In this document: positions 299 through 3,555 of the stretch, piece by piece
Position numbering within the stretch: position 1 is the stretch's first letter
Layout: each line of letters opens with the position of its first letter
Source of the DNA: the human T2T-CHM13v2.0 reference genome, Homo sapiens
Assembly: GCF_009914755.1 (NCBI RefSeq)
Contig: NC_060946.1
DNA length: 64,000 nucleotides
Direction: 5' to 3' (one strand)
Notes under the pieces: model-generated
What the model saw: the letters and a program-made list of their open reading frames with translations, nothing else
Databases searched by the model: none
Told to the model about the DNA's origin: nothing
Program-made: the position numbers and the translations under genes

Positions 299-898
<600 letters not shown>

Positions 899-1663
899 CT
901 ACACTGGGTGCTAAGGTCATCCCCAAACACAGCGGGAAGCCAAGGGGGATGCAAAGGCACTGGGCTTGTCTCTTGGGGAGCCATGCATCTGCCACGGCCA
1001 CCTCACCTTCCTGTCACCTATCTTCAGCCACTCTCGAAGCTCTTATTTCCAAAAAGACTCAATGAAGCTAGTCATGTATTTTGGAATAGTGAGAATTCTA
1101 CTAGCCTGGCTCTAACGAGGGGTGTGAAAACCTGGCTTACGGAATCCTGCTGTCCTATGGTCACAGTTAGAAAAAAAAAAAATCAGTATCTTGAATTCTC
1201 ACTGACCCTGTCATAAGAGCACTCGGCTGGGAGTCAGGAGGCAGAGCTTGGGGCCACCCTGTCACTGTCTGCAGAACCTTGCAGGGTCCCCTCTATATCT
1301 ACGCAGACATCTCAGGAAGGGAGAGCTCCAAAGAACTGCTCTTGATTATAAATACTCCAAAGTTTAGGGATCTCTTCACGTACTTGTATTTCATTTTGTC
1401 TCCTGGTGCACGGGTCTTTCTCATGTAAACCGACCCTCAAGGGAAGCAGCCCCTAGCACTGGAACTCACACCCAGCAGCAATTAAACCAATTGCATCCTC
1501 CAAGGTAAAAAACAAACAAACAAGCCAAACCAAAGTGGCCAGCGATTTGAGATCAGTTTAAGCAAGAGCTAATGTTAAATGTGAAGCCTTCTATTACTGG
1601 ATATAAAAGTGAAGAATACTGACGAAGCCCGTTTCGTATTCCTTCACGGCCAGATTACTATTA

Positions 1664-2052
<389 letters not shown>

Positions 2053-2419: not shown

Positions 2420-2700
2420 TTTTTTTTTTTTTTTGAGGCAGGGTCTCACCCTGTCACCCAGGCTGGAGTACAGTGGTGCAATCACAGCTCACTGCAGCCT
2501 TGACCTGTGCTCAAGTGATCCTCCCGCCTCAGCCTCCTGAGCAGCTGGGACTACAGGCATGCACCATCACACCCAGCTGATTTTTTTTTTTTTAATTTTT
2601 TTGTAGAGATGAGGGTCTCCCTATGTTGCCCAGAATGGTCTCAAACTCCTGGACTCAAGCAATCCTCCCGCCTCAGCCTCCCAGATTGCTGGGATTACAG
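2420..2700 (-). mobile_element. Alu (AluJ-like), 5'-truncated
   Basis: Antisense dimer; TSD TGTTTTAAGATTT. Confidence 0.88.
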
Positions 2701-2957
2701 TGTTTTAAGATTTGAATGTGACGTCTCCAAATTCCAGACACAGCCCCTCATTTGCCCAGTTTGCTACTACAGGCCGGCGATAGGCACAGTGCGGGGAACC
2801 TGCCCAGAAGCCCAGGGGCAGATCAGGGAACGGGGGTGTAAGCAGGCAGGAAAAGCCAAGGCAAGGGGGGGGCGCGAGAAAACCTAGGCAGAAGCATTTC
2901 TTGCACAGCTTTGGACGCACCACACACACAAGAGACACCACTCGGGCGGCCAGTCAC

Positions 2958-3020
2958 CTGGTTCTAGGTGGAGAATAGGAAAGCGATGATAGAAATAGGC
3001 TCTCTGAGTGCTCTGCATCT
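2958..3020 (-). CDS. MYH9: Alternative loop-2 cassette exon of MYH9 (IIA2-type insert EMQSTQRAYFYHRFPILHLEP)
   Basis: 63 nt, phase 1-1, no stop; long pyrimidine tract, ctttaac branch site, ttgcag| acceptor, CAG|GTGACT donor; peptide resembles the 21-aa MYH10 B2 insert. Confidence 0.85.
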
Positions 3021-3084
3021 CTGCAACAGAGAGGTTAAAGCAAAACCCAGGCAAAGGAAAAGGAGAAACCAACAGAAAGAATTA

Positions 3085-3555
<471 letters not shown>

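What the first reader, a model, noticed from the sequence alone, without database searches (positions are those of the whole stretch)
2958..3020. Hidden intact 63-nt loop-2 cassette exon (IIA2), homologous to the MYH10 B2 exon
Seen in sequence: between exons 15 and 16 lies ttgcag|AGATGCAGAGCACTCAGAGAGCCTATTTCTATCATCGCTTTCCTATTCTCCACCTAGAACCAG|gtgact. It is phase 1-1 and inserts EMQSTQRAYFYHRFPILHLEP at WKD/VDR, the start of actin-binding loop 2. It has a ~70-nt AG-free U/C-rich tract with TCTT motifs (PTB-like), a ctttaac branch site, a UG-rich downstream flank and a distal TGCATG at 982-987. Established (from memory): MYH10 has a neural 21-aa B2 insert at the same site (approx. EIQNIQRASFYDSVSGLHEPP) that strongly alters motor activity. 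I recall a 63-nt Myh9 loop-2 variant reported in mouse, so this is probably known but absent from the canonical isoform. Inference: human NMIIA has a tissue-regulated isoform with altered actin affinity or ATPase.
Basis: partly seen in the sequence, partly recalled or inferred. Interest (0 to 1): 0.8.

Follow-up and report, generated by a model that had tools for sequence, protein, structure and literature searches.

The report
Known MYH9 loop-2 exon A2
This 63-base alternative exon in the human MYH9 gene is real and very well conserved, but it was already published as exon A2, which produces the motor-inactive, brain-expressed myosin isoform NM IIA2.

Summary
On the minus strand, 3020..2958 is a 63-nt, stop-free, phase 1-1 cassette between MYH9 exons 15 and 16. 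It inserts EMQSTQRAYFYHRFPILHLEP between WKD and VDR.

It is far more than chance:
- It is the best of 221 open candidates in the intron.
- It matches the MYH10 B2 exon, which I located on chr17, at 10/21 aa and 42/63 nt; 0 of 100,000 shuffles reached that score.
- An A2-type insert sits at the same site in 120 of 120 long named protein records returned, from primates to teleosts.

It is not new. Das et al. 2023 (PMC10480317) named it A2 / NM IIA2. They detected it in mouse and human brain and skeletal muscle, and showed very low actin-activated ATPase, no motility, and braking of NM IIA0. Mallick et al. [quoted passage not shown] A human record named "nonmuscle myosin IIA2" carries exactly this insert.

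Only the downstream UG run stands out.

Verdict: real, ordinary, already known; low interest.

The parts
2958..3020 (-). MYH9 cassette exon A2: 63 nt, phase 1-1, encoding residues 615-635 of the 1981-aa isoform
   Evidence: Sequence. Exact match to P0036, named 'nonmuscle myosin IIA2 [Homo sapiens]'.
3021..3094 (-). 3' splice site with a 72-nt AG-free, 76% pyrimidine tract ending ttgcag
   Evidence: Mallick 2026 score the mouse 3' site as optimal at 9.02.
3034..3040 (-). CTTTAAC, a candidate branch site with A at -16/-15. The only other adenines in the tract are at -63/-62 (3082-3083).
   Evidence: The read-through translation CFN is kept in 17 of 20 unnamed ORFs. Mutating the mouse branch point at -54 had no effect. 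Function is inferred only.
2952..2960 (-). 5' splice site CAG|GTGACT, matching the recalled MAG|GTRAGT consensus at 8/9, with the mismatch C at +5
   Evidence: In mouse, a C>G change at the 5' site raises MaxEnt from 6.60 to 10.67 and raises inclusion; GUGACU is proposed as the RbFox3 site. GD (G|GTGAY) is kept in 20 of 20 read-through ORFs.
2921..2930 (-). (TG)5 run at +28..+37 downstream of the exon
   Evidence: TGTG 5 observed against 0.53 expected, with 1 of 2000 shuffles reaching it. Function untested.
3432..3546 (-). Constitutive exon 15, ending ...WKD + G
   Evidence: and the hub annotation.
563..756 (-). Constitutive exon 16, starting TG + DRIIG...
   Evidence: and the hub annotation.

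Best explanation
This is MYH9 alternative exon A2. When it is included between exons 15 and 16, it adds 21 residues (615-635) at the start of actin-binding loop 2 and gives the heavy chain of NM IIA2.

From print:
- The exon is mostly skipped. Mallick 2026 attribute the skipping to a weak 5' splice site.
- RbFox1/2/3 raise inclusion, and MBNL1 and NOVA1 do so to a lesser degree.
- mRNA is detected in brain and skeletal muscle.
- The inserted motor still tethers actin but has roughly 20-fold lower actin-activated ATPase and does not move actin.
- It co-assembles with NM IIA0 and slows it.

Shown here: the exon's anatomy, its homology to MYH10 B2, and its strict conservation across bony vertebrates.

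Inferred: the near-invariant core QRAYFY..FP.LH acts by a specific contact that blocks actin-activated phosphate release, rather than by loop lengthening alone.
For: - Anatomy and frame.
- It is the best of 221 open candidates in the intron.
- P0036, a human record named 'nonmuscle myosin IIA2', holds exon 15 peptide, then E, A2, V, then exon 16 peptide in direct succession. All 16 of 16 coding exons in the window match it exactly.
- The mouse A2 peptide printed in Das 2023 is 19/21 identical to the window's.
- Expression and biochemistry.
- Splicing mechanism.
- B2 homology: 10/21 aa and 42/63 nt, with 0 of 100,000 shuffles reaching the score. B2 scored 43 among 957 candidates in the chr17 intron, against best scores of 25 (chr16, 212 candidates) and 23 (chr19, 251 candidates).
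- Conservation: 120 of 120 long named records carry an A2-type insert, 118 of them 21 aa long. E1, Q6, R7, A8, Y9, F14 and H18 are invariant in those 118.
Against: - Inclusion is low: 15% in mouse brain and 5% in muscle. No protein was detected in muscle, and no mRNA in three neuronal cell lines.
- The brake role rests on in vitro mixing and overexpression. The texts I read report no knockout.
- The 120 records were found by similarity to the insert, so they say nothing about species that lack it. Many are automatic gene models, not evidence of expression.
- RbFox binding at GUGACU rests on RNA immunoprecipitation of the whole minigene transcript and on a motif prediction, and there is no GCAUG within 300 nt of the human exon.
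- I counted no junction reads myself.
Confidence: 0.95

Rival explanations
1. It is a pseudo-exon included only as splicing noise, with no selected function.
For: Low inclusion and a weak 5' splice site. It is absent from the one RefSeq transcript listed by the hub.
Against: Length and frame are kept in 118 of 120 records from mammals to teleosts, with seven invariant columns. It is homologous to the functional B2 exon. Protein was detected with an insert-specific antibody.
Confidence: 0.02
2. It is a real, conserved exon, but its role in the animal is not to brake NM IIA0 filaments. It might instead act as a static actin tether or scaffold in a rare cell type, or through a specific partner of the insert.
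For: Abundance is low and restricted to certain brain regions, and no neuronal cell line expresses it. The core is far more strongly conserved than inactivating a motor would seem to need. The authors themselves suggest structural roles.
Against: As little as 20% IIA2 slows gliding several-fold in vitro. No partner is known.
Confidence: 0.2
3. The main tissue switch is PTBP1 repression through the upstream pyrimidine tract, rather than RbFox acting at the 5' splice site.
For: There is a 72-nt AG-free pyrimidine tract with two TCTT and CTCTCT. From my own knowledge, brain and muscle both have low PTBP1.
Against: TCTT and CTCT are no more frequent than in composition-matched shuffles. Deleting part of the left intron in the mouse minigene did not raise inclusion. 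Strengthening the 5' site alone rescues inclusion.
Confidence: 0.12

Closest known systems
MYH9 exon A2 / NM IIA2 (Das et al. 2023, PMC10480317; Mallick et al. 2026, PMC13158602)
   Same: The same gene, the same intron, 63 nt and 21 aa. The human database record has the identical insert. The mouse peptide is 19/21 identical.
   Different: Nothing: this is that exon. Li et al. 2008 (DNA Cell Biol 27:117) is cited by reviews for MYH9 A1/A2 variants, but I could not read it.
MYH10 exon B2 (NM IIB2)
   Same: The same phase-1 intron after WKD, 63 nt, and the shared pattern E.Q..QRA.FY.....LH..P (10/21 aa). Both give motors with little actin-activated ATPase and no motility.
   Different: The C-terminal half differs: FPILHLEP against VSGLHEPP. 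The B2 5' splice site is reported as optimal and the A2 site as weak. The intronic flanks do not resemble each other by eye (no alignment was run).
MYH14 exon C2 (NM IIC2)
   Same: The same intron position. It is neuronal.
   Different: It is 99 nt and 33 aa, and gives a constitutively active motor. The 99-nt candidate I found on chr19 has no clear similarity to A2; the best alignment score in that intron was 23.

Membership tests
Published MYH9 exon A2 (NM IIA2) | A 63-nt exon between exons 15 and 16, beginning at the second base of a GAG codon | tested here: met
   The description in the Das 2023 Figure 1 legend matches.
Published MYH9 exon A2 (NM IIA2) | Insert sequence identical to the deposited human IIA2 protein | tested here: met
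   P0036 residues 615-635, and 16 of 16 exons in the window match it.
Published MYH9 exon A2 (NM IIA2) | Inclusion in brain and skeletal muscle RNA | not testable with these tools
   Literature only. No RNA-seq data were available here.
Non-muscle myosin II loop-2 cassette exons (A2/B2/C2) | Located in the phase-1 intron after WK[D] at the start of loop 2 | tested here: met
   The same boundary is present on chr22, chr17, chr16 and chr19.
Non-muscle myosin II loop-2 cassette exons (A2/B2/C2) | In-frame, with no stop, preserving the downstream frame | tested here: met
Non-muscle myosin II loop-2 cassette exons (A2/B2/C2) | Sequence homology to B2 | tested here: met
   10/21 aa and 42/63 nt, with 0 of 100,000 shuffles reaching the score.
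Non-muscle myosin II loop-2 cassette exons (A2/B2/C2) | Changes the motor's actin-activated ATPase and motility | not testable with these tools
   Literature only.

The most novel reading that the evidence does not exclude
The A2/B2 cassette is an ancient module. It predates at least the split of ray-finned fish and tetrapods in MYH9, and probably the MYH9/MYH10 duplication. Its near-invariant core QRAYFY-xx-FP-x-LH has been kept despite inclusion of 15% or less. That would mean the insert makes a specific, selected contact, with actin, with the motor's own cleft or with a partner, rather than simply disabling the motor by lengthening loop 2. A second, smaller possibility is that the (UG)5 run at +28..+37, rather than GUGACU, is the element through which RbFox, CELF or MBNL factors act.
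Probability: 0.4. Interest if true: 0.35.

Novelty: already known. Interest (0 to 1): 0.1.

Why it matters
NM IIA is the main contractile motor of most non-muscle cells, and MYH9 is a disease gene. A motor-inactive, filament-competent isoform could locally damp contractility in neurons. That point has already been made and tested in print.

- the exact T2T coordinates of the exon;
- a statistical test of the A2-B2 homology;
- a residue-by-residue conservation profile across 120 vertebrate records;

Tried and rejected
- Searching the window's own genome with the 20-aa insert found only the exon itself. I therefore located B2 through the flanking exons.
- The crude splice-site filter found only repeat-derived candidates in the MYH11 and MYH14 introns. 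The chr19 99-nt candidate for C2 came from a length listing and is not verified.
- TGCATG as an RBFOX site is rejected as evidence: 50 observed against 49.75 expected in the window. The nearer copy lies in a repeat that matches eight other masked stretches at 71-77% identity.
- PTB-like motif enrichment is rejected.
- Li et al. 2008 is not held.
- No structure prediction, complex prediction or RNA folding was run, because the function is already measured in print.
- Supplements of the two JBC papers (human GEO check, human splice scores, the 10-species alignment) were not opened.

Full report
**Observation**

On the minus strand, window 3020..2958 reads AGATGCAG...GAACCAG. It is 63 nt, preceded by ttgcag and followed by gtgact. 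Exon 15 (3546..3432) ends TGG AAG GAT G. Exon 16 (756..563) begins TG GAC CGC. Inclusion therefore keeps the frame and inserts EMQSTQRAYFYHRFPILHLEP between WKD and VDR.

- The AG-free stretch before the 3' splice site is 72 nt and 76% pyrimidine.
- CTTTAAC lies at -20..-14.
- TCTT occurs twice, about 60 and 70 nt upstream of the exon.
- A (TG)5 run lies at +28..+37.
- TGCATG lies at 987..982.

**Is it more than chance?**

The intron holds 3120 AG..GT pairs of 24-300 nt. Of these, 1045 are multiples of three and 221 are open in phase 1. Ten pass a crude filter: at least 7/9 match to the recalled MAG|GTRAGT consensus, and a pyrimidine fraction of at least 0.70 at -20..-4. This exon is the only one with 8/9. 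The other nine lie at 1669-2034, in or beside a masked repeat.

The motifs fare differently:
- TCTT and CTCT are no more frequent than in composition-matched shuffles.
- TGCATG occurs 50 times in the window against 49.75 expected.
- A nearer TGCATG at 2563..2558 sits inside a repeat that matches eight other masked stretches of the window.
- Only the downstream UG richness stands out: 12 TG in 60 nt against 5.8 expected, with 1 of 2000 shuffles reaching it.

**Paralogues**

The window's genome could be searched. Peptides of exons 15 and 16 found the same pair of exons on chr17, chr16 and chr19. From recall, these are MYH10, MYH11 and MYH14. All four genes have the same phase-1 boundary, WK[D] G|gt ... 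ag|TG GA.

- **chr17.** Of 957 open phase 1-1 candidates in the 14-kb intron, the one most similar to A2 is a 63-nt exon at 8436759..8436697. It encodes EIQNIQRASFYDSVSGLHEPP and scores 43. The best scores in the chr16 and chr19 introns were 25 and 23.
- **A2 against B2.** They share 10 of 21 residues and 42 of 63 bases without gaps. None of 100,000 shuffles of A2 reached that score or that identity.
- **Named MYH10 records.** Nine of nine returned carry this identical insert at WKD|..|VDRI.
- **chr19.** A 99-nt open candidate at 53342734-53342832 has the length reported for C2. It shows no clear similarity to A2.
- **chr16.** Only repeat-derived candidates appeared.

**Conservation**

A search with the exon read through into its flanks returned 65 proteins. 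Forty-five are long named myosin-9 records and 20 are unnamed short ORFs. A second search used residues 605-644 of the human record P0036. It gave 130 proteins at E <= 0.001 among 509 candidates, of which the best 120 were listed.

Together these gave 120 long named records. All 120 carry an A2-type insert at the same site; 118 inserts are 21 aa and 2 are 22 aa.

- The source names cover primates, rodents, bats, carnivores, ungulates, cetaceans, a colugo, a marsupial, birds, a crocodile, turtles, squamates, a gar and teleosts.
- Among the 118, E1, Q6, R7, A8, Y9, F14 and H18 never vary.
- F10, Y11, P15 and L17 each vary once.
- Position 12 is H in 28 records, including all 25 primate records, and Q in most others.

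There are caveats. These records were found by similarity to the insert, so species lacking it cannot be counted. Many are automatic gene models. No amphibian, shark or lamprey record was among those listed.

The 20 unnamed ORFs read through the exon into the introns. They keep CFN (the TTTAAC region) in 17 of 20 and GD (G|GTGAY, the 5' splice site) in 20 of 20.

**What is known**

Das et al. 2023 (PMC10480317). I read the abstract, four of the five Results subsections, the Discussion and one Methods paragraph.
- They found a 63-nt exon A2 at loop 2 by RT-PCR in mouse and human brain and skeletal muscle.
- Inclusion was 15% in mouse brain and 5% in muscle.
- An antibody raised against the mouse peptide, which is 19/21 identical to the window's, detected protein in brain.
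- Phosphorylated HMM IIA2 has Vmax 0.017 s-1 against 0.38 s-1 for IIA0, and gliding of 0.24 nm/s against 274 nm/s.
- It still tethers actin. At 20% of a mixture it slows IIA0 to about 53 nm/s.
- The abstract states that it forms heterofilaments with IIA0.
- Its expression varies over the day.
- They also compare A2, B2 and C2.

Mallick et al. 2026 (PMC13158602). I read the abstract, all Results, the Discussion and the in silico Methods.
- They score the mouse 5' splice site at 6.60 and the 3' site at 9.02.
- A C>G change raises the 5' site to 10.67 and raises inclusion.
- A branch-point mutation and deletions in the flanking introns have no effect.
- RbFox1/2/3, and less strongly MBNL1 and NOVA1, raise inclusion.
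- They found no UGCAUG and propose RbFox3 binding at GUGACU.

The human window has the same GTGACT, with C at +5 as its only mismatch to the consensus. It has no GCATG within 300 nt on either side of the exon.

The human protein record P0036 is named 'nonmuscle myosin IIA2 [Homo sapiens]' in nr and is also a UniProt entry. It holds the insert at residues 615-635 and matches all 16 coding exons in the window.

Reviews cite Li et al. 2008 for MYH9 splice variants. That paper is not held, so I saw only its citation.

**Mechanism**

- Shown here: the exon's anatomy, its homology to B2 and its conservation.
- Shown in print: regulated inclusion, loss of motor activity, retained actin binding, and slowing of IIA0 in mixed motility assays.
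- Inferred: the invariant aromatic and hydrophobic core acts through a specific contact that hinders actin-activated phosphate release. The authors also favour direct interference by the loop.
- Untested: whether the (UG)5 run or PTB proteins contribute.

**Verdict**

The finding is accurate, and its interpretation is essentially right. The exon, its function, its relation to B2 and its regulation by RbFox are all published. Novelty: already known. Interest: low.

Noticed in passing
L005 (G000:C19:53342734-53342832, + strand): A 99-nt open phase 1-1 candidate in the MYH14 intron at the same site. It encodes 33 aa beginning EHGGFQQF, has a 173-nt AG-free tract and a 5' site match of 6/9. The length fits the published C2 exon, but its identity was not checked against any record.
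   Followed up: partly
L004 (G000:C16:15755267-15758331): The MYH11 intron at the same phase-1 position has no A2/B2-like open cassette. The best alignment score was 25, and all candidates passing the splice filter look repeat-derived.
   Followed up: partly
window 1669-2034, minus strand: Nine open phase 1-1 pseudo-exon candidates with a 5' site match of 7/9 and good pyrimidine tracts lie in or beside a masked repeat in the same intron. These are possible exonisation substrates.
   Followed up: no
P0126, P0130, P0112: Two cetacean records have a 22-aa insert in which L replaces the otherwise invariant H18 (...LLLLEP). One bovid record (Budorcas) has three unusual changes. These could reflect relaxed constraint or gene-model and assembly errors.
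   Followed up: no
P0075: A Sarcophilus record that its source labels 'Myosin-10' carries an A2-type insert, not a B2-type one. The label is probably wrong.
   Followed up: no
PMC10480317, Results text against the Figure 1 legend: The paper gives mouse-human insert identity as >90% in the text and 85.71% in the legend. The printed mouse peptide against the window gives 19/21, or 90.5%.
   Followed up: yes
It is unlikely to be a conserved RBFOX site.
   Followed up: partly
P0001-P0020: In 8 of 20 unnamed read-through ORFs, the translation downstream of the exon contains VCGAS-like words. That is consistent with a conserved GTGTGTGG... element about 30 nt into the intron. The inference rests on back-translation and is weak.
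   Followed up: partly
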